From assembly GCA_963692865.2 (NCBI GenBank), contig OY843592.1, positions 2,927,356 through 2,991,355 of the forward strand: 64,000 nucleotides of DNA, in the 5' to 3' direction. The notes beneath the pieces are model-generated. The model was not told the origin of the DNA. It did no database searches and worked only from the letters and a program-made list of their open reading frames with translations. A program made the position numbers and the translations under genes. Below are positions 9,827-61,435 of the stretch, in pieces (within the stretch, counting starts at the first letter, position 1; the number at the start of each line of letters is the position of its first letter). This stretch comes from a bacterium. Lineage in GTDB: Bacteria > UBA8248.

Positions 9827-9858
9827 AAAAAAAACTCCATGCCCACAGGGCATGGAGT
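9827..9858 (-). terminator. leader intrinsic terminator (attenuator) upstream of pyrR
   Basis: Minus-strand RNA ACUCCAUGCCC-UGU-GGGCAUGGAGU (11-bp perfect stem) followed by U7-8, 46 nt before the pyrR ATG. Confidence 0.75.
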
Positions 9859-9904
9859 CTCGAAAACAGGCGAGAAAACGGCAATCATCTGCGCATCCTC
9901 CTTC

Positions 9905-9922
9905 GCCGCCTCACGGGACGGC
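9905..9922 (-). promoter_or_regulatory. candidate PyrR-binding loop in the pyr leader
   Basis: Minus-strand RNA GCCGUCCCGUGAGGCGGC. The loop UCCCGUGAGG matches 8 of 10 positions of the Bacillus PyrR binding-loop core UCCAGAGAGG (recalled consensus). Confidence 0.45.
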
Positions 9923-10028
9923 ATTAAAGGGGAATCTCTTTATCACCGGTTTGTTTCCGCCCGGCGAATATCCGGCCGGGCCATTTCCCCGAAACTAGCA
10001 GTCTTTGCCGCAAAGGGCAAGGGCGGAT

Positions 10029-21294: not shown

Positions 21295-22467
21295 ATGAGC
21301 CTGCAAACGGAAACCACGCTGCAATTCGACCTCGACGAAACCCAGAAGATGCTCCGCCGGACGGTGCGCGAACTCTCGGAGCGCTACATCGCCCCGCGCG
21401 CCGCCGAGATCGACGAGAACGAGGAATACCCCGAGGACATCTTCCAGCTCCAGAAAGAATACGGCCTGCTCGGCATCTTCTTCCCCGAGGAATACGGGGG
21501 CGGCGGCATGGGTTTTCTGGGCGGCTGCGTCGCCATCGAGGAAATAGCCCGCGTCTGCTCGAACTCCCCGCTGTTCATCGTGCTCAACATGCTATCGAGC
21601 CGCGTCATCGACCTGAGCGGCACGCAGGAGCAGAAAGACCACTACATGACGGGCCTCGCGAAAGGAGACCTCAGAGGCTCCTACGCCCTCACCGAACCCC
21701 ACGCGGGTTCAGACGCCGGCAACATCCGCACCCGCGCCGTCAAGGAGGGCGACGAGTGGGTGCTCAACGGCACCAAGTGCTTCTGCACGGGGCCGGACAA
21801 GGCGGATTTCATCACCGTCGCCGCCAAGACCGACCCGCACGCGGGAACGCGCGGCATCACCTACTACATCGTGCCCACCGACGCGCCGGGCTTCAGCATC
21901 GCCAAGCACGAGCGCAAGATGGGGATGCGCGGCATCGCGACCTGCATGCTCAACCTCGACAACGTGGCCGTCCCGCTCGAGAACCAGGTGGGCGAGCTCA
22001 ACGCGGGCTTCAAGACCGCGATGATCGGCTTCAACCAGATGCGGCCCGCCATCGGCTCGCGCGCGGTGGGCCTGGCCCAGGGATGCCTCGACTACGCGGC
22101 AAACTACGCCAAGGAGCGCGAGGCGTTCGGGAAGCCCATCGCCCAGCACCAGGCCGTGCAGTTCATGCTCGCCGACATGTTCATGGACATCGAGGCGGCG
22201 CGGCTGCTCGTCTACCGCGCGGCCGCCATGGTGGACGCAGGGAAAATCGGCAAGGAGAACGCCAGGTATTTCTCCACGGCCAAGACCTACGCGGCCGACA
22301 TGGCGATGAAGTGCGCGATAGACAGCATCCAGGTGCTCGGCGGCGCGGGCTACATGAAGGACCACCCGCTCGAGCGCTTCATGCGCGACGCCAAGCAAAT
22401 CCAGATCGTCGAGGGAACGAGCCAGATACAGCGGATGATCATCGCCCGGAACCTGCTCGACCTATAG
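21295..22467 (+). CDS. acyl-CoA dehydrogenase
   Basis: 390 aa. ALTEPHAGSDAGNIRT, QVLGGAGYMKDHPLERFMRDAK and EGTSQIQRMIIAR are ACAD signatures. Confidence 0.95.
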   Translation: MSLQTETTLQFDLDETQKMLRRTVRELSERYIAPRAAEIDENEEYPEDIFQLQKEYGLLGIFFPEEYGGGGMGFLGGCVAIEEIARVCSNSPLFIVLNMLSSRVIDLSGTQEQKDHYMTGLAKGDLRGSYALTEPHAGSDAGNIRTRAVKEGDEWVLNGTKCFCTGPDKADFITVAAKTDPHAGTRGITYYIVPTDAPGFSIAKHERKMGMRGIATCMLNLDNVAVPLENQVGELNAGFKTAMIGFNQMRPAIGSRAVGLAQGCLDYAANYAKEREAFGKPIAQHQAVQFMLADMFMDIEAARLLVYRAAAMVDAGKIGKENARYFSTAKTYAADMAMKCAIDSIQVLGGAGYMKDHPLERFMRDAKQIQIVEGTSQIQRMIIARNLLDL

Positions 22468-22479
22468 GAGCGAGCCGAG

Positions 22480-23646
22480 GTGACGGGAAGTCCGGATTCC
22501 GGGGGCGCGTTCGAACTCAAACCGGCCCAGCGGATGCTGGCCGAGACGGTGTATGAACTGAGCCGCCGCCACGTCGCGCCGCGCGCCGCCGAGATCGACG
22601 AGAACGACGAATACCCCGAAGATATTTTCGAACTCCTGAAATCCCACGACCTGCTAGGCCTCTACGTTTCCGAAGCCTACGGCGGGGCGGGCCTCGGCAT
22701 TCTGGAAACGTGCGTCGCCATCGAGCAGATGGCGCGTTTTTGCTCGAACTCCCCTCTTTTCTTCTCCGTCCACCTGCTCGCCACGCGGCCCGTCGCCATC
22801 GGCGGAAGCGAGGAGCAGAAGCGGACCTACCTCACCGGCGTCGCTCGGGGCGAGTTGCGGCCCGCCTTCTCGCTCACCGAACCGCACGCGGGTTCCGACG
22901 CCGCGAGCATATCGACGAGGGCGGTCCGGGACGGGGATTCGTGGGTCATCAACGGCCAGAAGTGCTATTGCACGGGGTCGAGCGTGGCGGACTTCATCAC
23001 CGTGGCGGCGAAGACCGAACCCGGGATGGGAGCGAGGGGGATATCGTTTTTCATCGTCCCCAGGGGCGAGTTCCGCGTGGGGCGGCACGAGCGCAAGATG
23101 GGGATGCGGGGCATCCCGACGTGCGAGGTTTTTCTCGAAAACGCGCGCGTTCCCCTTGAAAACATGATCGGCGAACAAGGCCTGGGCTTCAAGACCGCCA
23201 TGCTCGGCTTCAACCAGGCGCGGCCCGCCATCGGCGCGCGGGGCGTGGGTCTGGCGCAGGGGTGTCTCGATTGCGCCGGAAACTACGCAAAAGAGCGCGA
23301 AGCCTTCGGAAAACCCATCGCGCAGCATCAGGCGGTGCAGTTCATGCTCGCCGACATGTTCATGGAAACGGAAGCGGCCCGTATGCTCGTTTACCGCGCC
23401 GCCTCGATGGTGGATAATGGCCGCTACCAAAAAGAAGACGTGCATTTCATCTGCGCCGCGAAATGCTACGCCACCGACGCCGCCATGAAGACCGCCGTAG
23501 ACGGCGTTCAGGTGCTCGGCGGCGCGGGCTATATGAAAGACCATCCGCTCGAGCGTTTCATGAGAGACGCCAAGCAACTGCAGATTATCGAGGGTACCAA
23601 CCAGATACAGCGCATGGTCATCGCCCAGAATTTATTGAGTCTATAG
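22480..23646 (+). CDS. acyl-CoA dehydrogenase (tandem paralogue)
   Basis: 388 aa. Collinear with the upstream ACAD over its whole length (SLTEPHAGSDAASIST, QVLGGAGYMKDHPLERFMRDAK). GTG start. Confidence 0.95.
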   Translation: MTGSPDSGGAFELKPAQRMLAETVYELSRRHVAPRAAEIDENDEYPEDIFELLKSHDLLGLYVSEAYGGAGLGILETCVAIEQMARFCSNSPLFFSVHLLATRPVAIGGSEEQKRTYLTGVARGELRPAFSLTEPHAGSDAASISTRAVRDGDSWVINGQKCYCTGSSVADFITVAAKTEPGMGARGISFFIVPRGEFRVGRHERKMGMRGIPTCEVFLENARVPLENMIGEQGLGFKTAMLGFNQARPAIGARGVGLAQGCLDCAGNYAKEREAFGKPIAQHQAVQFMLADMFMETEAARMLVYRAASMVDNGRYQKEDVHFICAAKCYATDAAMKTAVDGVQVLGGAGYMKDHPLERFMRDAKQLQIIEGTNQIQRMVIAQNLLSL

Positions 23647-23674
23647 TTCCAGTTCTTCACCACGGAGATTCGAG

Positions 23675-24283
23675 ATGAGCCAGATGATTGAAATCCTGCA
23701 GCCCACCTCCTTCATCCGCGCGGGCGACCACCCCCTCGCGGAGCGGCCCGAGGACATCGGGGGCCTCAGGGTCGGCTTCTTCCACAACAACAAGCCCAAC
23801 GCCGACGTCCTGCTCGAACAGGTCGAGGAGCTTTTCGCGCGCGAAGACGAGACGCTGCGCGTCGTCCGCTGGGGAAAGCCGAACCCCACCCTCCCCGAAG
23901 ACCGGATTGAGGAATTCATCGAACAGGTGGACGTGGCCGTCTGCGCGGTGGGCGACTGAGGGAGCTGCACGTCATGGAGTATCCATGACTCGGTGGTGAT
24001 GGAGAAGGCGGGCGTCCCCACGGCCACGTTCTGCTCCAGCGAATTCTCGGCCCTGGGCGCGAACGAGAGAACCGCCCTGGGCATGCCCGGCCTCCCGATA
24101 GTCGTCGTGGCGCATCCGGTGGGCGGCATCGCGCCCGAACAAGCGCGCGCCCTGGGCGACGGCGCCGTGGAGGAGATTCGGCGAATCCTCACGAGCGACG
24201 CCGAATCGCTCAGGCGGGAATACCGCGAGCGCGAATACGTCCCGCCCCGCAAGACGGTGCGCCACAAGGCGCTCTTCGCTTAG
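23675..24283 (+). CDS. UGSC-motif selenoprotein (in-frame UGA at 23957-23959 read as Sec)
   Basis: ORFs 23675..23959 and 23993..24283 are in the same frame (offset 318 nt). Read-through gives ...VDVAVCAVGD-U-GSCTSWSIHDSVVMEKAGVPTATFC... A hairpin follows 11 nt after the [11 protein letters not shown] before the ATG. Confidence 0.75.
23971..23989 (+). promoter_or_regulatory. candidate bacterial SECIS hairpin
   Basis: GTCATGG-agtat-CCATGAC, a perfect 7-bp stem with a GU-containing loop, starting 11 nt 3' of the UGA at 23957. Confidence 0.6.
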
Positions 24284-24295
24284 GCGGGCCAGACA

Positions 24296-25372
24296 GTGAA
24301 CGATCACTCTCAGGAGAATATCGTGTTCGAGAGCGAGCGCGTGAAGGTGCGCGACACGCCCGAGGCGATGGCGCGTCTGCTCGAAGCAAGAGGCTGGGGC
24401 GACGGCCTGCCCGTCGTCCCCCCCACGCCCGAGCGCGTCGCCCGGATGGTGGAGGGCGCGGGTCTCGCGCCCGATGCGGAGATCGGCCTCATGCCCCCTC
24501 GGCAGGGAGTCGTCACGGTCGAAGTCCTCGCCGTGAACGCCGTGATGGCAGGCTGTCTTCCGGCATATATGCCCGTTCTCGCGGCAGCGGCCCGCGCGGT
24601 GCTCGAACCCGAGTTCTCGCTACACGCGATTCAGGCGACGACCCACCCGGTGGCGCCCCTCATCATCGTGAACGGCCCCATCGTCGAAGATATCGGCTTG
24701 AACGCCGAGTATGGATGCTTCGCCCCCGGCAACCGCGCGAACGCGACGATTGGCCGAGCGATGCGCCTGACGCTTCTGAACGTGGGCGGCGCGAGCCCCG
24801 GCGTTCTGGACCGCGCCACGCAAGGCTCACCCGCCAAATACGCGTACTGCATCGCAGAGAACGAGGCGGCCTCGCCCTGGGAGCCGCTCCACGTCGAGCG
24901 CGGTTTCTCTCCCGGTGATAGCGCGGTGACGCTCGTGGGCTGCGAGGGTCCCCACAACATCAACGATCACGTGAGCCATACGGCGGAGGGAATACTCGCC
25001 ACCGCCGCCGACACCATGGCCGTCATGGGGTGTAACAATTTCTATCTGCGCGGCGAGCCCGTTCTCGCCCTCGGCCCCGAGCACGCGGCCACCATCGCGG
25101 GTGACGGCCTCACAAAGGCGGACGTGAAGCAGAGAATTTTCGAACTCGCCCGAAAGCCCGTGCGGCAGTTAAAGCGCGGCGCCATGTGGGGGATGCAGAC
25201 CTGGGGCGAGGAGATAGCCGAGCACGAAGACGACGATGATTTCGAGATTCCCCTTCTCGACGGGCCCGAGGACCTGCTCCTTATCGTCGCGGGCGGCGCG
25301 GGCAAGCACTCGTGCTGCATGCCCACCTTCGGTCCCACGCGCTCGGTGACCCGGAAGATCGACACCACCTGA
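24296..25372 (+). CDS. conserved protein of unknown function (358 aa), probably co-transcribed with the UGSC selenoprotein
   Basis: Clean 358-aa ORF 12 nt after the UGSC stop, with normal codon bias for this genome (...LLEARGWGDGLPVVPPTPERVARMVEG...). No domain recognised. GTG start. Confidence 0.7.
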   Translation: MNDHSQENIVFESERVKVRDTPEAMARLLEARGWGDGLPVVPPTPERVARMVEGAGLAPDAEIGLMPPRQGVVTVEVLAVNAVMAGCLPAYMPVLAAAARAVLEPEFSLHAIQATTHPVAPLIIVNGPIVEDIGLNAEYGCFAPGNRANATIGRAMRLTLLNVGGASPGVLDRATQGSPAKYAYCIAENEAASPWEPLHVERGFSPGDSAVTLVGCEGPHNINDHVSHTAEGILATAADTMAVMGCNNFYLRGEPVLALGPEHAATIAGDGLTKADVKQRIFELARKPVRQLKRGAMWGMQTWGEEIAEHEDDDDFEIPLLDGPEDLLLIVAGGAGKHSCCMPTFGPTRSVTRKIDTT

Positions 25373-25870
25373 TAAGGGATTGTTGAAAGACCCTGCCTGC
25401 AGAACCCTGAAGAAGATAGAAATTGCCGGTTCGCTCACTGCCTTGAATCGGGCGCTTTTCCCTCACCCCGAGCAGTAGCCTCCCGACTCGCCTCATCCTG
25501 AGTAGCGGCGAAGCCGCGTATCGAAGGTCAATCGCAACCAATGCGGGAGCGATTGCCTCTCGCCCGGCGCGAAGCGCTCGACTCCCCTCGTCCTTCGATA
25601 CAAACGCTCCTTCATCGGGGCCGTTGAAAAAGCCTGTTCCGGGGTCGGGCGGACACACAGGTCCGCCCCTGCGTTTCGTTTCGCAGAGGTTGGCAGGTCA
25701 GACATATATGTCTGGTATATCATGCGACCCGTATTGTGAAGGCGAAAAGGCAGGGCCGCATGATATGCGGCCCCTACGGCGGGATACCGACCGGCCCGCA
25801 AGGGGTTTTTCAACAACCCCTTCTCAGTCGCGTTTGACCTTCGGCGGCTACTCAGGGTGAGGAGGGGTGG
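25373..25870. repeat. intergenic mosaic of interspersed palindromic repeat modules
   Basis: GTTGAAA(A/G) modules at 25376-25395, 25621-25632 and, inverted, 25806-25820. 37-bp module CCTCATCCTGAGTAGCGGCGAAGCCGCGTATCGAAGG at 25491-25527. GTCAGACATATATGTCTGG at 25697-25715. Confidence 0.8.
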
Positions 25871-26000
25871 TTGCGCGCCAAGGCGGCAAACGCGTCGTCA
25901 ATGCCAAGCGATGAAAGAGAAAATACCGCCGTCATTCCGGCATCAATTCCGACCCATGAGGAAGGGATGGTTATTTTGAAAACCGCTCTTTTTCGGAAGT

Positions 26001-26600
26001 CTAGCAAGCCGCTTCCGGCGGCGGCAACATGGCTTCCACCTGTCCGACGATGGATTGCGGAAAACTCCGATCGGGGGAGACGCGCGCCAACACCCTGAGT
26101 CCGAGAAACAGACCGAACAAAGATTTCGCCGTTTGGTCCGGAACAACTCGGGGGCATATCTCCCCGCAAGCCTGCCCCCGCTTGATGGAAGCGTGAAAAA
26201 ACTCCGTCATGCCGGCGAACGCGCCGGCCACGAACGAAGCCACCTCTTCATCATGCGCCCCGAGCTCGAGGGCGACGTTGACTTCGAAGCAGCCCTCGCT
26301 CGACTCGTTGTCCACAGCCTTCGAGGCGACCGCTTTGAATACAGAGATCACCGCTCTGCGCGGCGAAGAATCCTTTTCGAGTTCCTGTATCGGAACTACG
26401 CGGTAAAACCGGTCGTAATGGTAAAGCGCCCGCAAGAACATCTGACGCTTGCCGCCGAACGCATGGTACAGGCTGCCTCGCAAGAGACCCGTCGCCTTCT
26501 CCAGATCCCGAATCGACGTCGCCGAATAGCCATAGCGCCAAAACTGATCCATTGTTTTCGTCAAAATTTCGTCCATATCGAACTTTGGCGCTTTCCCCAT
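26001..26600 (-). CDS. TetR/AcrR-family transcriptional regulator
   Basis: N-terminal HTH ILTKTMDQFWRYGYSATSIRDLEKATGLLRGSLYHAFGGK. 199 aa. Confidence 0.9.
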   Translation of the reverse strand: MGKAPKFDMDEILTKTMDQFWRYGYSATSIRDLEKATGLLRGSLYHAFGGKRQMFLRALYHYDRFYRVVPIQELEKDSSPRRAVISVFKAVASKAVDNESSEGCFEVNVALELGAHDEEVASFVAGAFAGMTEFFHASIKRGQACGEICPRVVPDQTAKSLFGLFLGLRVLARVSPDRSFPQSIVGQVEAMLPPPEAAC

Positions 26601-26915
26601 GGGTCCTCTCTTCGTTTTTCCCCGTTTTTACGCCGAATCACGGAATTCCTGCTAACGCCATGTCAAAGCTGTAGCGGCTCAAGCCAGCCCACCAATTTGA
26701 TGGTTAGCACACGGGCAAGCCCGTTTCAAGAAAAATCGTTCCCCGGCGGATTATTCCCCGGGAAGCGCTCGTGCGCCTGCGTTTAGAGTCTTTTTTGCCC
26801 GGTGGCGCGGGATAAATCCATTCATTTGCATTGCCTCGTGTTCGGCCCCGTGCTAGATTCTCGTTTCCGGGGAAGCCGACCTTTCTTTTCTGCCGAGACG
26901 CGGGAGGAACAACCC

Positions 26916-27312: not shown

Positions 27313-28167
27313 ATGAGCAGCCGCAGGGCCATCGCCGATACGCTCGTGCTCGTCAAGGGAGGCGGAGACCTCGCCACAGGCGTCGCGCACCGTCTGTACC
27401 GCGCGGGGTTTCCACTCGTTATCACCGAAATTGAAAACCCCACCATGGTGAGGCGCACCGTCTCCTTCGCCGAATGCCTCTACGCCGATGGATGGCAAGT
27501 AGAGGGCGTAACCTCCGCCCGGGCGGACGGCGAAACTCCCTCGGAAAAAGCAATGAGCGCGCGCGCCATCCTGGAGGCGGGTTCGATTCCGGTGATGGTG
27601 GACCCGCGCGCAGACGCAATCGCCCACGTCCGGCCCGCCGTCGTGGTCGATGCGATTCTGGCGAAGCGGAACCTCGGCACGCGCATCGATGACGCGGAGG
27701 TCGTGGTCGGCCTGGGGCCGGGCTTCACGGCGGGCGTGGATTGCCACGCCGTCATCGAGACCTCGCGGGGGCATGACCTGGGACGGGTGATTCTGGAGGG
27801 CGCGGCCAAACCGAACACGGGCGTTCCGGGGCCCATCGGCGGCTACACCACCGAGCGGCTCTTGCGCGCTCCCAAGGCCGGCGTCTTCACCTCCATCGCC
27901 CGAATCGGCGACACGGTGCGCGCGGGAGAAGCCGTCGCCCGCGTGGACGGCGAGGAGGTGCGCTCCGCCATCGACGGCGTTTTGCGCGGGCTTCTGAGAG
28001 ACGGCATCGAGGTGAGCGACGGCTTCAAGGTGGGCGACGTCGACCCGAGGGCCGAGCCCTCCCATTGCCACACGATATCGGATAAATCGCGCGCCATCGG
28101 CGGCGGCGCGCTCGAGGCCATCATGATGTTCCTGTTCGGCGTTTCAGCCATGGAGTATGCGAATTGA
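27313..28167 (+). CDS. yqeB: YqeB-family selenium-dependent molybdenum hydroxylase system protein
   Basis: LVLVKGGGDLATGVAHRLYRAGFPLVITEIENPTMVRRTVSFAECLY matches my recollection of the YqeB-family N-terminus. ~284 aa. True TGA stop at 28165-28167. Confidence 0.78.
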   Translation: MSSRRAIADTLVLVKGGGDLATGVAHRLYRAGFPLVITEIENPTMVRRTVSFAECLYADGWQVEGVTSARADGETPSEKAMSARAILEAGSIPVMVDPRADAIAHVRPAVVVDAILAKRNLGTRIDDAEVVVGLGPGFTAGVDCHAVIETSRGHDLGRVILEGAAKPNTGVPGPIGGYTTERLLRAPKAGVFTSIARIGDTVRAGEAVARVDGEEVRSAIDGVLRGLLRDGIEVSDGFKVGDVDPRAEPSHCHTISDKSRAIGGGALEAIMMFLFGVSAMEYAN

Positions 28168-29048
28168 GTACCGAGATATTGAGTGAAACGGTGGAAAACG
28201 GCGTCTACAACATCGGACGCAGCGAAATCCCCATCAACGAGACCAACGGCAACTCCTTCGTTCCCCCTGCGCAGTTCTATCTGGCGGCGGGCGACGCGCT
28301 CGAGCGCATCGCGTGGGCGGTGAGCCAAAACCTGCCCGTCCTCCTCGTGGGGGAGACCGGCGTCGGCAAGACCCTCTCGGTGCGCCACCTCGCCCACATG
28401 ACGAACAACGGCTTCCGGCGCGTGAACCTAAACGGCATGACCACGGTCGATGAGTTCGTGGGCAAGCTGATGATCAACGAACAGGGCACCTACTGGGTGA
28501 ACGGCATCCTGGTCGACGCCATGGAATCGGGCGACTGGCTGCTTATCGACGAGATCAACGCATGTCTGCCGGAAATCGCCTTCTGCCTGCACAGCCTGCT
28601 CGACGACGACCGCATGATCGTCTTGTCCGAATACGACGGCCGCATCGTCAAGCCCCACCCGAATTTCAGGCTCTTCGCCAGCATGAACCCGCACGAGGAC
28701 CGCAGATACGGCGGCACCAAGCCCCTGAACGAGGCGCTTCTGGATCGCTTCCCGGTCACCGTGAAGATGGACTACCTGCCTTTCGAGGCGGAAGTCGAGG
28801 TCATCATGCAGCAGAGCGGGAACCGCGACGAGGAGCTCGTCAAGCGCATGGTGCGCGTGGGCCACGACGTGCGCGAGGCCATGCAGAACGAGAAGGTGTT
28901 CTGCACGTTCAGCACCCGGCGCCTCATCGACTGGGCGCGCATGGCGGCGCAGTTCGACCCCATGGAAGCCGCCGTCTCGACGATTTTCAGCAAGGTCAAC
29001 TCTTTCGACGCCAAGGTGCTCGAGGACATCGTAGACAACCACTTCTAG
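28164..29048 (+). CDS. AAA+ ATPase, AAA_5/MoxR class (CoxD/CobS/NorQ-like)
   Basis: Walker A LLVGETGVGKT, Walker B WLLIDEINA, NPHEDRRYGGTKPLNEALLDRF sensor/arginine region. TTG start overlapping the yqeB stop. Confidence 0.88.
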   Translation: MSTEILSETVENGVYNIGRSEIPINETNGNSFVPPAQFYLAAGDALERIAWAVSQNLPVLLVGETGVGKTLSVRHLAHMTNNGFRRVNLNGMTTVDEFVGKLMINEQGTYWVNGILVDAMESGDWLLIDEINACLPEIAFCLHSLLDDDRMIVLSEYDGRIVKPHPNFRLFASMNPHEDRRYGGTKPLNEALLDRFPVTVKMDYLPFEAEVEVIMQQSGNRDEELVKRMVRVGHDVREAMQNEKVFCTFSTRRLIDWARMAAQFDPMEAAVSTIFSKVNSFDAKVLEDIVDNHF

Positions 29049-29062
29049 CCGGGAGATGAGGC

Positions 29063-30834
29063 ATGGAGCGCCGACGCGCCCGTCTCGAAGCGCTCGCGCA
29101 GGTGACCGCGCACGATTACGACCTCGCCCTGAACTTCGGCCCCAAGGCGAAGAACGGCGAGGACGCCATTCACGTCGAGGACCCCGAACAGACCCTGGCG
29201 CGCCTGGGCGGCGGACTCAACGACGAGCACGTCCTCAGATTCCAGAAAGGCATGACGCTCATCGAAGTGGCCCACAAAATCCACGGCACGTTCCGCTGGG
29301 CGGGGCGCGCCGCGCTCGCGAACCGCGAGAGGCCGGGTCTTTTCCACATCTGGCACACGCTCGAGGACGCGCGGTGCGAAAACCGCCTCGCCGAATCGCT
29401 GCCCGGCACCAGGAAGAATTTCCGCGCCTTCATTCTGCCTGCCATCGAGGCGGCCGAACGCAACCAGATGAGCGGGCAACTCCCCTTGTTTCTCCAGATC
29501 CAGTGGGGAATCTACCTCGCCGGGATCGGGCAGACGCCCGGCGTCCCCTCCTCGCGGCCCGGAGACTTGCCGGCGGCCTGGTTCGACACCGCCGTCGTCC
29601 AGATATTCCACAGGCTCACCCCGCTGGTAGACCGCGCCTGCGCCGCCGATGACCCCAAGACCGCCTTCGATTGCGCGAACGAGATCTACGACGCCATCCA
29701 GCGCTATCTCACCGAAGAGCAACTGGCCCGGATGAGCGAGGATCAGGACCTCTCGGATATCCCCGAGGAAATTTTAGAGAAAATCGAGAGCCAGAACCTC
29801 GAAGGCGACGACGACGAAGCGATGGAGATGCTTCACCCCGAAGCGGCGGAGGAAATCGACGAAGAGGACGTGGGCGAGCAGGTCGAACTGAGTCCCGAGG
29901 AACTCGCGGCGCTCGGGCACTGGGCCGCCCCCTGGTTCGAGTTAGAGGGCAACAAGAAGGAAATCCACCCCACCGCCGAGCATCCCGACGAGCGCACGGT
30001 CGTACTGCCGCCGGAGGGCAAGGCCGAGGAATACGCGGCGGTCATCGACAATGCGGGCAGCCAAATCAAGGTGCTGGTGTGGAAGCTCATGCAGATCATC
30101 CAGGAGAGAACCTACACCCGCTACAGCGGCTCGCACCGCTCGGGCAAGCTGAACCTCCCCAAGCTGTGGAAACAGCGGCTGGGGAAATTCCATCTCTTCC
30201 ACCGCAGGGAAGAGCCCGACAACTCGACGTGTGCTTCACGCTGCTCGTGGACGAGAGCGGCAGCATGAACCGCGAGTCGAAATACATGGCCGCCCGGGAG
30301 GCGACCATCTTCTTCGCCGAAGCGCTCGACCGCATCGACGTGCCCTTCGAGGTCATCGGCTATTCCACCGAGAGCTCGGAAGCCGCCATGGCGGCGGCCC
30401 TGGGCCACATCCCGGCGTTCAAGTTCCGCCACATCCGGCACTCGCCGCTGCAACACCGCATCTACAAGGGCTTTGAGGATCAGTTCGCCCAGGTGAAGCA
30501 CAGGCTCGTCAACATCTATCCGCGCTTCAACAACTGGGACGAGGAGCACCTGCTCTTCGCCTACCGCAGGCTCATCCAGCGGCCCGAGGAGGAGAAGATC
30601 ATCATCATCACCTCCGACGGCCAGCCCAACGGGGACGCGACCCACCTCGTGAACACGGTGAACCGGCTGCAGAAACTCGGCGTCCGCGTCATCGGCGTCG
30701 GCGTGGTGGACCCATTCGTGGAGCAGATCTACCCCAACCACATCGTCGTGCAGGACCTCTCCCAGCTTTCCACCGAACTCGTGAACATCCTGAGGCGCGA
30801 ACTGCTCGGCGGGTTGGAGAGCCGCGCTTGGTAG
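29063..30834 (+). pseudogene. CobT/CoxE-like protein with acidic linker and C-terminal VWA (MIDAS) domain, interrupted by a frameshift near 30205-30215
   Basis: The N-terminal 380 aa are in the frame of ORF 29063..30268. The VWA domain (LDVCFTLLVDESGSM...IIIITSDGQPNG) is in the frame of ORF 29671..30834 (frame offset -1). There is no start codon upstream of the MIDAS motif in the second frame. Confidence 0.7.
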
Positions 30835-31655
30835 CGCGAGAGAGCGTCGTCCGCTCCCTCGGGGTCGAACCGGGCCAGAGCGTCGCGGCTGTCGGCGGGG
30901 GCGGAAAAACGAGCCTGCTGACGGCCATCGCCAGGCAGTTTCACGCCCAAAACGGAATGCCTGCGATTCTCACGACGACTACGAAGATTTTCGCGCCCCT
31001 CCCCGAAGAAGGAATCCATCTCGCTTTGGGCGACGCCGAGACGCTCGCAGAGAACCTCCGCCCCTACATGGGCGCCTGCGGCATATCCTGGCTCGCCAGA
31101 AAGCGCGAGGGCGAAGCCCCAATTCCGGGCCGGGAGAGCGAGCGGCGCATGAAGCTGGGCGGTTTTACGCCTTCGGAAATTGCCCGCTTCACGCCGGGTG
31201 ACGCCCTGACGCTCATCGAGGCGGACGGCGCGAGAAGACTGCCCATCAAGGCGCCCGGCCCCGGTGAGCCCGTCCTGCCCGAAGGCCTGGACGCCGTGCT
31301 GGGCGTCATCGGGCTGGACGCGCTGGGCGCGCCCTTGAGCGAGGCGCACGTCTTCCGCCCCGATGCGCTCTCACGCATATGCGATCTGGGAGCCGGAGAA
31401 GAGATTACGGCGGAGACGGTCGGGAAGTTGTGCGCGCATCCTGATGGTCTTTTTCATAAAGCGGAGGCCGGCGCCCGCAAGTGGATCGTCATCAACAAGG
31501 CGGATCTGGAAACCTCGCTGGAAAAATTGCGCGAAATCGCATATATTGTATGGGAGTTTGCCGGAAAACCTCATGGCCCGGCGGACGGCATCCTCTTTAC
31601 GTCTTGTACGAACAACGAATGTGAAGTATTCATACGTATCACACAAGATGCGTAA
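30828..31655 (+). CDS. yqeC: YqeC-family selenium cofactor biosynthesis / hydroxylase accessory protein
   Basis: P-loop-like AAVGGGGKTSLLTAIA and ILTTTTKIF motifs typical of YqeC. 275 aa. TTG start behind GGAGA, overlapping the VWA stop. Confidence 0.78.
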   Translation: MVARESVVRSLGVEPGQSVAAVGGGGKTSLLTAIARQFHAQNGMPAILTTTTKIFAPLPEEGIHLALGDAETLAENLRPYMGACGISWLARKREGEAPIPGRESERRMKLGGFTPSEIARFTPGDALTLIEADGARRLPIKAPGPGEPVLPEGLDAVLGVIGLDALGAPLSEAHVFRPDALSRICDLGAGEEITAETVGKLCAHPDGLFHKAEAGARKWIVINKADLETSLEKLREIAYIVWEFAGKPHGPADGILFTSCTNNECEVFIRITQDA

Positions 31656-31686
31656 CGACTGCAATTCCAAGCAGGCGGAGCAAGGA

Positions 31687-32832
31687 ATGAGCAAGGACGT
31701 ATTCAGGGAAATGGCGAAACTCAAGGAAGACGGCCAGGGCGGCGCGCTCGCCACCGTCGTGGCCCGCAAGGGGTCCGCGCCCATGAGCGGCGATGCGAAG
31801 ATGCTCGTGCGCGAGGACGGCAGCACGGAGGGCACGGTCGGCGGCGGCTGTCTCGAAGCCGAAGTCTGGGAAACCGCCATGAGCGTCCTGGAGACGGGCG
31901 CACCCGAAAAGCTGCGCTTCGACCTCACCCAGCAGGAAGCCGAAGACAGCGGGCACATCTGCGGCGGCGTGGTGGAGATACTCGTGGAGCCGTTCCAGGC
32001 GTTCCAGGAAGAGTTGCTCGGCGAGATCAACCGCATCAGAACCGAGGGCGGCAGCGCCGCGCTGGCGACCATCGTTCAGCCGGGCGATATCGACGCGCCG
32101 AATGCGGAGAACAGGAAGATGCTCTTCCGGCGCGACGGCAGCGCCGTGGGCGATATTCCCACCTACTCGACGGAGATATGGGCGGAGAGCACCCAGATCA
32201 TCCGAAACGGCAGCCCCACGCTCCTGCAGTTCAACAGGGACGCCGCGCGCGCCGGAGAAAAGCGCTCGACGCTCACCGAGGCCACCGAAATTTTCGTCGA
32301 ACCCATATCCGGCCAGCCCCTCGTCTATATTTTCGGCGGCGGTCACGTCTCCTTCTGCGTCGCGCAGGCGGCCTACCTCGCGGGATTCCGCGTTTCGGTC
32401 GTCGAGGACAGACCCTCGTTCGCCAACAAGGAGCGCTTCCCGATGGCGGAATCGTTCCACGTGGGGGAATTCCCTGAAATTTTCGAGAAAATCCCGGTCG
32501 ATGAGTCCGACTACCTGGCCATCATCACCCGAGGCCACGCGAACGACGAGGTCGTCCTCGAGTGGGCGATGAAGTCCGACGCGCGCTACATCGGGATGAT
32601 TGGCTCCAAAAGCAAGGTGCTGCTCACCTATCGCCACCTCCAGGACAAGGGGTATGACCGCGGCGAACTCATCGAGCGCGTCCATGCGCCCATAGGCCTC
32701 GACATCGGCGCCGATACGCCGGGCGAGATCGGGGTGGCCATCGTCGCCGAACTCATCCGGCACCGCCGCAAAGGCGAGGCGCAGGGCGAAGGCGCGGGCA
32801 GCAAGAGGGTGCAACTCAGAAGAAAATCCTAA
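31687..32832 (+). CDS. xdhC: XdhC/CoxI(CoxF)-family molybdenum-hydroxylase accessory protein
   Basis: Start at the ATG at 31687 (GGAG 6 nt upstream). GALATVVARKGSAPMSGDAKMLVREDGSTEGTVGGGCLEAEV (XdhC_CoxI N-domain, duplicated) and the Rossmann-like IFGGGHVSFCVAQAAYLAGFRVSVVEDRP. Confidence 0.88.
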   Translation: MSKDVFREMAKLKEDGQGGALATVVARKGSAPMSGDAKMLVREDGSTEGTVGGGCLEAEVWETAMSVLETGAPEKLRFDLTQQEAEDSGHICGGVVEILVEPFQAFQEELLGEINRIRTEGGSAALATIVQPGDIDAPNAENRKMLFRRDGSAVGDIPTYSTEIWAESTQIIRNGSPTLLQFNRDAARAGEKRSTLTEATEIFVEPISGQPLVYIFGGGHVSFCVAQAAYLAGFRVSVVEDRPSFANKERFPMAESFHVGEFPEIFEKIPVDESDYLAIITRGHANDEVVLEWAMKSDARYIGMIGSKSKVLLTYRHLQDKGYDRGELIERVHAPIGLDIGADTPGEIGVAIVAELIRHRRKGEAQGEGAGSKRVQLRRKS

Positions 32833-60751: not shown

Positions 60752-61435
60752 ATGTCGAACCAGGCAAGCGAAACCAGCAAAATCCGGCTGCTCGACCCCG
60801 ATGCGGCGGCGGGTGATACGGCGCGTTTCTTCGAGGCGACGCGCGAGTTTCTGGGACGCATCCCCAATTCCGCGCTCGCAATGGCGAACACGCCCTACAT
60901 CGCGCGCTTCTACCTCCCCTTCAACGCCACGCTCCAGCGCGAGGGCATGGGCGGTCTGCTGACCTGCAAGATAAAGGAGATCGTGGTTCTCAAGACGAGC
61001 TTCGTGAATTCTTGCGCCTACTGAATCGCGCACAACACGGCGCTTGGTCAAGCGACGGGAATCACGGATGAGCAGATCGAGGCCATCGCCTCGGACGATT
61101 ACATGACCTCCCCCCTTTTAAGTCCGCGCGAGCGCGCCGCCTGCCTGTGGGCGGAGCATTTTACGCGAAACACCGCGCGCGAGAACCCGGACGTGCTCGA
61201 AGAGGTGAAGCGGCATTTCACCGATGGCGAGATCGTCGAGATGTCTCTCATGAGCGGCAAGCAGAGCATGATGAACCGCTTCATGGACTCGTTCGCCATC
61301 CCCATTGAGGACGAGGGCGAGGTGAACAAGATCAAAAAATCTGTGCGCGGGAATCCCGACAAGATGAAGGCGTATCTCCAGGCGCTCATCGACAACTGGC
61401 CCGAGGAGTTCCCCGAACCCAACCCGGATGAATAG
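60752..61435 (+). CDS. AhpD/carboxymuconolactone-decarboxylase-like selenoprotein (in-frame UGA at 61022-61024 read as Sec, CxxU motif)
   Basis: ORFs 60752..61024 and 61103..61435 share a frame (offset 351 nt). Read-through gives ...LKTSFVNSCAY-U-IAHNTALGQATGITDEQIEAI..., so the UGA sits where CMD/AhpD proteins carry the second Cys of CxxC. Hairpin 13 nt downstream. Confidence 0.75.
61038..61057 (+). promoter_or_regulatory. candidate bacterial SECIS hairpin
   Basis: CGG-CGCTT-ggtc-AAGCG-ACG. 5-bp core stem plus 2 further pairs across one G/A mismatch, with apical loop GGUC. Starts 13 nt after the UGA. Confidence 0.5.

What the first reader, a model, noticed from the sequence alone, without database searches (positions are those of the whole stretch)
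23675..24283. Split ORF pair is one UGSC-motif selenoprotein with a SECIS-like hairpin
Seen in the sequence:
- The 94-aa ORF ends at TGA 23957-23959. The 96-aa ORF starting at 23993 is in the same frame.
- The 33 nt between them are open and read GSCTSWSIHDS.
- The joined product is ...AVCAVGD-U-GSCTSW...
- A perfect hairpin GTCATGG-AGTAT-CCATGAC begins 11 nt after the UGA, the spacing expected for a bacterial SECIS.
- TGA is a genuine stop elsewhere in the window (for example yqeB at 28165-28167), so this is site-specific recoding rather than a reassigned genetic code.

Established knowledge (from memory): RefSeq has a 'UGSC family (seleno)protein' family named for exactly this U-G-S-C motif, with no assigned function.

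Standard gene callers would report two fragments here.
Basis: partly seen in the sequence, partly recalled or inferred. Interest (0 to 1): 0.65.

Follow-up and report, generated by a model that had tools for sequence, protein, structure and literature searches.

The report
UGSC selenoprotein gene with SECIS hairpin
The two short ORFs are one ordinary member of the already-catalogued UGSC selenoprotein family, read through an in-frame UGA with the help of a conserved RNA hairpin, and almost always encoded next to, or fused with, one unannotated partner protein.

Summary
The observation and the interpretation both hold. ORF 23675-23959 and its in-frame continuation to TAG 24281-24283 encode one 202-aa protein. 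It passes the curated cut-offs of NCBIfam NF041046 and Pfam PF24696, and both matches span the UGA. Homologues carry Cys at that position and stay conserved beyond it.

The hairpin at 23971-23989 meets every criterion of the published bacterial SECIS consensus. In 115 distinct Sec-type sequences, 96.6% of stem positions pair and 4 of 7 pairs show compensatory changes. The hairpin pairs fully in 103 of 122 Sec forms but only 4 of 80 Cys forms. The post-UGA half is under purifying selection.

No Sec-decoding genes lie in the window. A second selenoprotein gene (AhpD-like, UGA 61022) and YqeB/YqeC point to selenium use.

The family has been described since 2007-2008, so the finding is correct but not new.

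Added value:
- UGSC is almost always adjacent to, or fused with, a family of about 350 aa that has no Pfam or NCBIfam model.
- The UGSC model looks flavodoxin/Rossmann-like, not thioredoxin-like as the literature assumed.

The parts
23675..24283 (+). UGSC-family selenoprotein gene. 202 aa with Sec at residue 95, ATG 23675, stop TAG 24281-24283. A GGAG Shine-Dalgarno lies at 23664-23667.
   Evidence: Searches give the sequence and translation. NF041046 scores 138.8 bits (cut-off 125) and PF24696 161.9 bits (cut-off 25), residues 6-173, spanning the UGA. Cys homologues align across the site.
23957..23959 (+). In-frame UGA decoded as selenocysteine. It is the first residue of the U-G-S-C motif.
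   Evidence: Aligned to an invariant Cys in 9 full-length homologues. TGA is kept at this position in relatives L087, L089, L091 and L093 and in 119 metagenomic UGSC genes.
23971..23989 (+). Bacterial SECIS hairpin. Stem 23971-23977 pairs with 23983-23989, and the loop is AGUAU (23978-23982). A23978 and U23982 can close an eighth pair, leaving a GUA triloop. The loop G is the 20th nt after the UGA.
   Evidence: -9.7 kcal/mol. 96.6% of cells paired, 4 of 7 pairs with compensatory changes, 0 of 500 shuffles reach the covariation score. The closing pair co-varies as AU 75, GC 14, UG 13. Fully paired in 103 of 122 Sec forms against 4 of 80 Cys forms.
24296..25372 (+). Conserved partner gene. 358 aa from GTG 24296. 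The more likely start is GTG 24323, preceded by AGGAG 24312-24316, giving 349 aa. It has no Pfam or NCBIfam model.
   Evidence: No family hit. At least 8000 homologue clusters. Adjacent to UGSC in 76 of 86 Cys-type loci. In Sec-type loci it is directly downstream in 54 and fused in about 34. Homologues align from about residue 9-11.
21295..23646 (+). Two tandem acyl-CoA dehydrogenase genes (21295-22467 and 22480-23646) immediately upstream on the same strand, 28 nt from the UGSC start. Probably the same operon in this lineage.
   Evidence: NCBIfam best hits are acryloyl-CoA reductase and cyclohexanecarbonyl-CoA dehydrogenase, both below their cut-offs. The same arrangement occurs in L087, L089, L091 and L093.
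27313..31655 (+). Context: selenium-dependent molybdenum hydroxylase maturation cluster. YqeB 27313-28167, MoxR-type AAA 28164-29048, an unannotated 401-aa ORF 29063-30268, YqeC 30828-31655. An XdhC-like gene follows at 31363-32832.
   Evidence: TIGR03309 scores 363 bits (cut-off 220). PF19842 YqeC scores 116 bits.
60752..61435 (+). Context: a second selenoprotein gene. AhpD-like/CMD, 227 aa, UGA 61022-61024, motif C-A-Y-U...H. A CGCUU-GGUC-AAGCG hairpin starts 16 nt after the UGA.
   Evidence: The Pfam CMD match of 34.4 bits (cut-off 23), residues 63-135, spans the UGA at residue 91. Hairpin -7.0 kcal/mol. A loose screen for in-frame TGA with coding signal on both sides finds only 23957 and 61022.

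Best explanation
One gene (23675-24283) encodes a 202-aa UGSC-family selenoprotein.

Recoding (inferred mechanism, standard bacterial pathway): UGA 23957-23959 is read as selenocysteine. The mRNA hairpin 11 nt downstream is a bacterial SECIS. It has a 7-8 bp stem and an apical loop presenting G-U 20-21 nt after the UGA. It would tether SelB.GTP.Sec-tRNA(Sec) at the ribosome, so the UGA is decoded instead of terminating.

Protein (inferred): Sec95-Gly-Ser-Cys98 sits between a beta-strand and the N-terminus of a helix in a flavodoxin/Rossmann-like alpha/beta domain. It would cycle between selenol/thiol and selenenylsulfide.

Partner (inferred): UGSC acts as the small redox subunit of a two-component enzyme. 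The large subunit is the roughly 350-aa protein encoded directly downstream (24296/24323-25372). In many organisms the two are fused into one chain.

Shown here: family membership, the Cys/Sec alignment, selection on the post-UGA half, the Sec-specific co-varying hairpin, and the UGSC-partner linkage.

Not shown: actual Sec insertion, the redox cycle, physical interaction with the partner, and the substrate.
For: Family:
- NF041046 138.8 bits against a 125 cut-off. PF24696 161.9 bits over residues 6-173.
- Nine full-length homologues have C-[GA]-S-C at the UGA position, and conservation continues (MPGLPIVVV.HP.GG).
- P0004 (81% identical) stops exactly at ...AVGD.

Read-through:
- pN/pS of the 105 codons after the UGA is 0.11-0.23 against L087, L089 and L091. 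That is equal to or lower than the N-terminal half.
- An HMM built only from Cys forms aligns across the UGA in 119 of 120 metagenomic hits.

SECIS:
- It meets all four criteria of the consensus in PMC13188914: 7-8 bp stem; loop A-G-U-A-U, which fits N1-G-[G/U]-N-N2 with N1.N2 pairing; 18 nt from UGA to loop; -9.7 kcal/mol.
- The loop G at +20 matches PMC4605307.
- Stem variants co-vary: GUCGUGG/CCACGAC, GUCAUGG/CCAUGAC, GACGUGG/CCACGUC, AACGUGG/CCACGUU.
- 96.6% of cells are paired, 25 cells carry double changes, 0 of 500 shuffles match, and slid registers give 20-60%.
- In the identical S-W-x-x-H-D peptide context, the three wobble-only pairs are paired in 86/88, 88/88 and 88/88 Sec forms. 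In Cys forms the counts are 9/12, 5/12 and 6/12.

Sec use in this organism:
- A second selenoprotein gene lies at 60752-61435.
- YqeB and YqeC are present.
- TGA is a normal stop elsewhere.

Partner link.

Fold: a pLDDT 93 model of Cys homologue P0001 has beta-alpha-beta-alpha-beta-[CxxC]-alpha-beta-alpha order. The best PDB hits are WrbA, flavodoxin, receiver domains and MccF.
Against: - No selA, selB, selD or tRNA-Sec lies in the 64-kb window.
- There is no experimental evidence: no 75Se labelling and no peptide.
- The 66-nt region as a whole folds no better than shuffles (z = 0.06). Only the local hairpin stands out.
- Four of the seven stem pairs are partly dictated by the conserved S-W...H-D peptide, so raw pairing overstates RNA selection. 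The wobble-only test was designed for this, but its Cys control has only 12 sequences.
- The metagenome scan pattern fixed the first five stem nucleotides' codons (T-S/T-W), which biases the Sec sample towards one subfamily.
- The fold statement rests on a predicted model of a 42%-identical Cys homologue, with weak Foldseek scores (E about 1e-3, TM about 0.45).
- The function and the partner interaction are inferred only from gene linkage.
Confidence: 0.9

Rival explanations
1. Pseudogene or nonsense allele. A Cys codon (TGC/TGT) mutated to TGA, or a sequencing error produced it, and only a truncated 94-aa fragment or nothing functional is made.
For: TGA is one substitution from TGC/TGT. Cys forms of the family exist. 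No Sec machinery is visible in the window.
Against: - TGA sits at the same codon in independent assemblies L087, L089, L091 and L093 (70-90% identical partner genes) and in 119 metagenomic genes.
- The downstream half is intact with pN/pS 0.11-0.23.
- A co-varying hairpin is specific to the TGA forms.
Confidence: 0.02
2. Two separate small genes: a 94-aa protein ending at TGA and a 96-aa protein starting at GTG 23993.
For: This is what ORF finders and the gene calls on related contigs report.
Against: - Single HMM matches run uninterrupted across the junction.
- Cys homologues are single chains of 180-213 aa.
- The 33-nt 'spacer' encodes the most conserved motif of the family, GSCTSW..HD.
- By eye, no Shine-Dalgarno precedes GTG 23993 in the sequence shown.
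Confidence: 0.02
3. UGA read-through without selenium. The site would be decoded as Cys or Trp by near-cognate suppression, or UGA would be reassigned genome-wide, and the hairpin would be only a pausing element.
For: Sec insertion itself was not demonstrated. Cys is functionally acceptable at this position in homologues.
Against: - UGA terminates many well-supported genes in the window, for example YqeB with a full-length profile match. This rules out reassignment.
- The hairpin has the specific bSECIS geometry and the G-U loop that SelB recognises (PMC13188914, PMC4605307).
- A second gene of a known CxxU selenoprotein family shows the same arrangement, with a GGUC loop.
- YqeB/YqeC indicate selenium metabolism.
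Confidence: 0.04
4. Rival on function only. UGSC is a free-standing thioredoxin-like thiol oxidoreductase, as the literature assumes, and its adjacency to the 350-aa gene is just operon co-regulation, not a shared enzyme.
For: [quoted passage not shown] A UxxC motif at a helix N-terminus is typical of thiol-disulfide oxidoreductases. About 10% of loci lack a detectable adjacent partner.
Against: - About 34 independent in-frame UGSC-partner fusions exist.
- Adjacency holds across bacteria and archaea while the flanking genes are heterogeneous.
- The predicted topology is beta-alpha-beta-alpha-beta-CxxC-alpha with flavodoxin-like matches, and no thioredoxin-fold protein appears among the 50 matches listed.
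Confidence: 0.15

Closest known systems
UGSC-containing selenoprotein family (NCBIfam NF041046, Pfam PF24696). First reported from Hyphomonas neptunium, the Olavius symbiont and GOS metagenomes (PMC1976440, PMC2398784). Listed as uncharacterised in the 2026 review PMC13188914.
   Same: The U-G-S-C motif, the length, full-length HMM matches above the curated cut-offs, the Sec/Cys dichotomy, and a SECIS immediately downstream. The 2008 paper already notes a fusion to an 'Unknown_1' domain. This is probably the partner family seen here, but that could not be verified because the figure is an image and the dataset is truncated.
   Different: Nothing essential: this is a typical member. The new elements are quantitative. 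They are the Sec-specific covariation of the hairpin, the near-obligate pairing with the partner gene, and a predicted fold that is flavodoxin/Rossmann-like rather than the assumed thioredoxin-like one.
Bacterial SECIS of the E. coli fdhF type, and the bSECISearch consensus model
   Same: It lies in the coding region. The stem starts 11 nt after the UGA. The stem is 7-8 bp, the apical loop is small with G-U, the loop G is about 20 nt from the UGA, and the MFE is below -7.5 kcal/mol (PMC13188914, PMC4605307).
   Different: The loop is A-GUA-U (a GUN triloop closed by a co-varying pair) rather than GGUC. No bulged U was identified. SelB binding was not tested.
Selenoprotein B subunits of Stickland-type reductases (GrdB/PrdB, Pfam PF07355, UxxC motif)
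   Same: A UxxC selenoprotein subunit that works with a larger, separately encoded subunit. Both are abundant in aerobic aquatic metagenomes (table in PMC2398784). This is a functional analogy only.
   Different: No sequence relationship was detected: no PF07355 hit for any of 41 UGSC members even at E <= 5. The partner is unrelated to GrdE/PrdA by Pfam. No pyruvoyl-forming motif was established.
Thioredoxin-fold UxxC/CxxU selenoproteins (Trx-like, Prx-like, SelW-like, AhpD-like)
   Same: A redox-type U/C-x-x-C motif at the N-terminus of a helix. An AhpD-like CxxU selenoprotein is encoded in the same window.
   Different: The predicted secondary-structure order and the Foldseek matches of the UGSC model are flavodoxin/Rossmann-like, not thioredoxin-like.

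Membership tests
UGSC family (seleno)protein (NF041046 / PF24696) | Score above the curated whole-protein cut-off of the family model | tested here: met
   NF041046 scores 138.8 bits against 125 (equivalog). PF24696 scores 161.9 bits against 25, over profile positions 1-171 of 172.
UGSC family (seleno)protein (NF041046 / PF24696) | A U/C-G-S-C motif at the family's invariant position, with Sec aligned to Cys of homologues | tested here: met
   The UGA aligns with an invariant Cys. S97 and C98 are invariant in the full-length set A2.
UGSC family (seleno)protein (NF041046 / PF24696) | A single chain of about 180-210 aa with a conserved C-terminal half beyond the motif | tested here: met
   The joined product is 202 aa. 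D105, E110, G113, P115, F124, G136 and P148 are conserved. pN/pS after the UGA is 0.11-0.23.
Bacterial SECIS element (bSECIS consensus, PMC13188914) | Upper stem of 4-16 bp with an apical loop of 3-9 nt | tested here: met
   A 7-bp perfect stem with a 5-nt loop, or 8 bp with a 3-nt loop.
Bacterial SECIS element (bSECIS consensus, PMC13188914) | G in the first two loop positions, usually followed by G or U (N1-G-[G/U]-N-N2 with N1.N2 pairing) | tested here: met
   The loop is A-G-U-A-U. Across Sec forms the loops include AGUGU 36, AGUAU 31, UGUAG 14, AGUCU 14 and GGUUC 12. The N1.N2 pair co-varies as AU 75, GC 14, UG 13.
Bacterial SECIS element (bSECIS consensus, PMC13188914) | 16-37 nt between the UGA and the apical loop | tested here: met
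   18 nt. The loop G is the 20th nt after the UGA.
Bacterial SECIS element (bSECIS consensus, PMC13188914) | MFE <= -7.5 kcal/mol | tested here: met
   -9.7 kcal/mol for the 19-nt hairpin. -14.4 kcal/mol for UGA to +41, which adds an extended lower stem.
Bacterial SECIS element (bSECIS consensus, PMC13188914) | Structure conserved by covariation and specific to UGA-containing genes | tested here: met
   103 of 122 Sec forms against 4 of 80 Cys forms are fully paired. The wobble-only pairs are 86-88 of 88 in Sec forms against 5-9 of 12 in Cys forms.
Bacterial SECIS element (bSECIS consensus, PMC13188914) | Binds SelB and directs Sec insertion | not testable with these tools
   This needs a reporter assay, SelB binding or 75Se labelling.
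Sec-decoding trait of the host genome | selA, selB, selC (tRNA-Sec) and selD are present | not testable with these tools
Indirect support comes from the second selenoprotein gene and from YqeB/YqeC.
Thioredoxin-fold thiol oxidoreductases (the literature's assumption for UGSC) | A thioredoxin fold with CxxC after beta1 at the N-terminus of alpha1 | tested here: not met
   The AF2 model of Cys homologue P0001 (pLDDT 93) has four beta-alpha units, with CxxC after beta3 at the N-terminus of alpha3. The 50 listed Foldseek PDB matches include flavodoxin, WrbA, receiver, MccF and periplasmic-binding folds, and none is a thioredoxin-fold protein. This rests on a prediction only.
GrdB/PrdB selenoprotein B (PF07355) | A match to the family model | tested here: not met
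   No PF07355 hit for the window protein or for any of 41 family members at E <= 5.

The most novel reading that the evidence does not exclude
UGSC is not a stand-alone thioredoxin-like protein. It would be the selenium-bearing small subunit, with a flavodoxin/Rossmann-like fold, of a widespread and entirely uncharacterised two-component enzyme that is often fused into one chain. Its catalytic subunit would be the roughly 350-aa partner family. That family has no Pfam or NCBIfam model, at least 8000 sequence clusters, about 80 invariant residues including two Cys and several His, and no convincing structural relative. The enzyme could carry out a new selenium-dependent reductive or lyase reaction on a small organic acid or amide.
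Probability: 0.45. Interest if true: 0.55.

Novelty: already known. Interest (0 to 1): 0.25.

Why it matters
For annotation, the locus should be one gene with a Sec codon, not two hypothetical fragments. The gene calls on all the related contigs examined make that error.

For biology, the finding itself adds nothing new. UGSC is one of the most abundant prokaryotic selenoprotein families in aquatic metagenomes (PMC2398784) and already has curated models.

The useful output is a testable lead on its unknown function:
- It is tightly linked to, and frequently fused with, one unannotated protein family.
- Its predicted fold disagrees with the literature's thioredoxin-like assumption.
- Its SECIS is a clean case of selection for RNA pairing acting on synonymous positions. 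In one Sec subfamily it coincides with an Asp-to-Val change at a position invariant in the Cys forms.

Tried and rejected
1. Structure prediction of the window protein itself. The tools refuse a sequence with Sec replaced or with an internal stop. I modelled the Cys homologue P0001 instead.
2. PDB sequence searches with profiles of both proteins. Nothing meaningful came back.
3. Foldseek of the partner model. The only match of note is weak: class I fumarate hydratase alpha subunit 7xky_A, E 1.5e-3, TMq 0.30. Weaker still are Toblerone-fold cyclic amide hydrolases and PrpD/IRG1. I did not accept these as homology.
4. Permissive Pfam scans of all alignment members (E <= 5). They gave no recurrent weak family for either protein.
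5. The genome-contig scan. The tool chose a pattern with Cys fixed at the Sec position, so it returned only Cys forms. Sec forms were recovered through partner homologues and a DNA-pattern metagenome scan.
6. Neighbour census for a third conserved gene. Flanks are heterogeneous: TctC 6, IclR 5, ACAD 4, Amidohydro_2 4 of 128 upstream, and NMT1 12, DUF6282 6, AcnX 4 of 119 downstream. No substrate could be deduced.
7. Organism identification through cluster names. No names are held. The nearest named relative is a 'Nitrospinota bacterium' MAG with a 70% identical partner.
8. Checking that 'Unknown_1' of PMC2398784 equals the partner family. The figure panel is an image and the sequence file is truncated.
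9. RNAalifold on the raw Sec alignment gave a weak, gapped version of the same helix. I relied on explicit pair counts instead.
10. L090's apparent UGSC-partner fusion was rejected as a frameshift in a 2.4x-coverage contig.
11. The L093 N-terminal pN/pS of 1.2 is an alignment artefact of a one-codon indel.

Full report
**1. The observation**

The sequence is as described. ORF 23675-23959 (94 aa) ends at TGA 23957-23959. The same frame stays open for 33 nt (GSCTSWSIHDS), then runs through GTG 23993 to TAG 24281-24283. The joined product is 202 aa and reads ...AVCAVGD-U-GSCTSW....

A perfect 7-bp hairpin, GTCATGG-AGTAT-CCATGAC, occupies 23971-23989 and starts 11 nt after the UGA. Such hairpins are uncommon. 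The + strand has 80 of them in 64 kb, and only 10 of 753 TGA trinucleotides are followed by a bSECIS-like one. The 66-nt region as a whole is no more stable than shuffled sequence (z = 0.06), so the argument has to rest on comparative data.

TGA is a normal stop elsewhere. Many coding-like ORFs end in it. YqeB (27313-28167) ends in TGA right after a full-length TIGR03309 match.

**2. What the gene is**

With Sec written as Cys, the joined protein scores 138.8 bits on NCBIfam NF041046, 'UGSC family (seleno)protein' (cut-off 125). It scores 161.9 bits on Pfam PF24696 (cut-off 25). Both matches run across the UGA.

Database homologues at 28-45% identity are single chains of 171-213 aa. They carry C-[GA]-S-C at the UGA position, and conservation continues downstream (D105, E110, G113, P115, F124, G136, P148). 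One hit that is 81% identical ends exactly at ...AVGD, as a gene call truncated at a Sec codon would.

Related assemblies were reached through the neighbouring gene (L087, L089, L091, L093). They have the same operon and the same TGA, and gene callers split UGSC into two products of about 94 aa, each hitting PF24696. Against L087, L089 and L091, the 105 codons after the UGA have pN/pS 0.11-0.23. That is as constrained as the part before it, so the downstream half is translated.

**3. The hairpin is a SECIS**

A metagenome scan for the coding pattern G-D-UGA-G-S-C-T-[ST]-W returned 120 loci. Of these, 119 are UGSC genes in which an HMM built only from Cys forms aligns across the UGA.

- **Pairing.** In the window's register, all 7 stem positions pair in 103 of 122 distinct Sec sequences. 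Only 4 of 80 Cys-form genes from the genome scan do so.
- **Covariation.** The stem occurs as GUCGUGG/CCACGAC (majority), GUCAUGG/CCAUGAC (the window, L087, L123), GACGUGG/CCACGUC and AACGUGG/CCACGUU.
- **Formal count on 115 distinct sequences.** 96.6% of cells are paired, 4 of 7 pairs have double changes, and 25 cells are compensatory. None of 500 shuffles reaches the covariation score, and all slid registers fall to 20-60% paired.
- **Control for the peptide.** Four stem pairs are partly fixed by the conserved S-W...H-D peptide. I therefore isolated the three pairs that depend only on third codon positions. Within the identical peptide context they are paired in 86/88, 88/88 and 88/88 Sec forms. 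In Cys forms the counts are 9/12, 5/12 and 6/12.

The element meets every criterion of the published bacterial SECIS consensus (PMC13188914):

| Criterion | Consensus | Window |
|---|---|---|
| Upper stem | 4-16 bp | 7-8 bp |
| Apical loop | 3-9 nt, N1-G-[G/U]-N-N2 with N1.N2 pairing | A-G-U-A-U |
| UGA to loop | 16-37 nt | 18 nt |
| MFE | <= -7.5 kcal/mol | -9.7 kcal/mol |

The N1.N2 closing pair itself co-varies (AU 75, GC 14, UG 13). The loop G is the 20th nucleotide after the UGA, which matches the 'conserved G at ~20 nt' and '6-8 bp stem' of PMC4605307.

**4. Does the organism decode Sec?**

The window holds no selA, selB, selD or tRNA-Sec. The rest of the genome could not be reached, so this stays untested. 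Two indirect observations support it.

- **A second selenoprotein gene.** A screen for in-frame TGA with coding signal on both sides finds exactly one more site, at 61022. The joined 227-aa product reads ...VNSCAY-U-IAHNT.... It matches Pfam CMD/AhpD-like across the UGA (34.4 bits, cut-off 23). A CGCUU-GGUC-AAGCG hairpin starts 16 nt downstream. AhpD-like CxxU is a known selenoprotein family (table in PMC2398784).
- **Selenium-cofactor markers.** YqeB (363 bits, cut-off 220) and YqeC, markers of the selenium-dependent molybdenum hydroxylase trait, lie 3-7 kb downstream.

**5. Context and probable function**

The gene that follows (24296-25372) probably starts at GTG 24323, behind AGGAG. It has no Pfam or NCBIfam match, yet it has at least 8000 homologue clusters.

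It is the constant companion of UGSC:

- Among 86 Cys-type loci, it lies directly downstream on the same strand in 73 and directly upstream in 3. These loci come from haloarchaea, sphingomonads, actinobacteria, Dehalococcoidia, Clostridiales and methanogens.
- Among Sec-type loci, it is a separate downstream gene in 54 and fused in frame to the UGSC C-terminus in about 34. In 19 the contig ends before it could be seen.
- Other neighbours are heterogeneous, so no third conserved component and no clear substrate emerges.

In the window's lineage the pair follows two acyl-CoA dehydrogenase genes. In relatives it precedes RidA-YqeB-MoxR-VWA.

AlphaFold models are confident:

- **UGSC homologue P0001 (pLDDT 93).** It has four beta-alpha units, with the CxxC between beta3 and the N-terminus of alpha3. 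The best PDB matches are flavodoxin, WrbA, receiver domains and MccF, and all are weak (E about 1e-3, TM about 0.45). No thioredoxin-fold protein is among the 50 listed.
- **Partner (pLDDT 86).** It has no convincing structural relative. The best match is 7xky_A, with TMq 0.30.

My inference is that UGSC is the redox-active Sec/Cys subunit of a two-component enzyme, and the partner is the catalytic subunit. The selenoprotein B subunits of Stickland reductases are a functional analogy only, because no sequence relationship was found.

**6. Comparison with what is known, and novelty**

The UGSC-containing selenoprotein was reported in 2007-2008 (PMC1976440, PMC2398784). The GOS survey counted 255 Sec forms and 21 Cys forms, called the fold 'likely Trx-like', and noted a fusion with an 'Unknown_1' domain. 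The family is still listed as uncharacterised in 2026 (PMC13188914, which cites NF041046).

This analysis adds three things:

- a quantitative demonstration of the Sec-specific, co-varying SECIS;
- the near-obligate linkage to an unannotated partner family, which is probably the 2008 'Unknown_1' (not verifiable);
- a predicted fold that is not thioredoxin-like.

**7. Verdict**

Observation confirmed, and interpretation supported. I put 0.9 on this being a genuine UGSC selenoprotein gene with a functional SECIS. The functional model has much lower confidence. Novelty: already known. Interest: 0.25. The most novel reading not excluded is a new two-component selenoenzyme with an unannotated catalytic subunit. 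I give that a probability of about 0.45 and an interest of about 0.55 if true.

Noticed in passing
window 60752-61435 (+), UGA 61022-61024: A second split ORF pair forms one AhpD-like/CMD selenoprotein with motif C-A-Y-U...H. The Pfam CMD match spans the UGA. A CGCUU-GGUC-AAGCG hairpin lies 16 nt downstream, and its GGUC loop matches, from memory, the apical loop of the E. coli fdhF SECIS.
   Followed up: partly
window 24296-25372 (+), probable start GTG 24323: The 350-aa protein downstream of UGSC belongs to a very large family (at least 8000 clusters) with no Pfam or NCBIfam model. It has about 80 invariant residues, including C87, C185, H117, H199, H220, H225 and H263, and no convincing structural relative. 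It is adjacent to or fused with UGSC across bacteria and archaea.
   Followed up: partly
L099, L100, L108, L130, L134, L151, L157, L166, L188, L190, L191 (metagenome loci), the region aligned to window 23971-23989: One Sec subfamily has the stem GACGUGG/CCACGUC and the peptide T-T-W-C-S-H-V. The Asp that is invariant in all Cys forms (D105 in window numbering) is Val here, and the change keeps the SECIS stem paired. RNA structure may be overriding protein conservation, or this may be a subfamily difference.
   Followed up: no
window 27313-32832 (+): This cluster holds YqeB, a MoxR/CbbQ-type AAA ATPase, an unannotated 401-aa ORF, YqeC and an XdhC-like maturation factor. It is the accessory set for a selenium-dependent molybdenum hydroxylase, yet no hydroxylase gene was identified among the ORFs scanned. 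In relatives L089, L091 and L093 the YqeB cluster follows within a few hundred nt of the UGSC-partner pair (RidA-YqeB in L089 and L091).
   Followed up: partly
window 25373-26800: The stretch between the partner gene and RidA carries a divergently oriented TetR gene (26001-26600, minus strand) and about 600 nt without a convincing gene. Relatives L089 and L091 have RidA about 150-180 nt after the partner. L087 instead has an unrelated Peptidase_M78 / nucleotidyltransferase insertion. This junction is variable.
   Followed up: no
window 9827-9934 (-): An Rfam PyrR binding site (RF00515, 55 bits, gathering score 54) lies upstream of an ORF run on the minus strand that, judged by ORF sizes only, looks like a pyrimidine operon (pyrR-pyrB-pyrC-carA-carB). 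It appears ordinary.
   Followed up: no
L090:1134-2828: This locus shows an apparent in-frame UGSC-partner fusion at 87% identity to the window. It is a single-base frameshift in a 2.44x-coverage contig, not a natural fusion. Fusion counts from low-coverage metagenome contigs need this caveat.
   Followed up: yes
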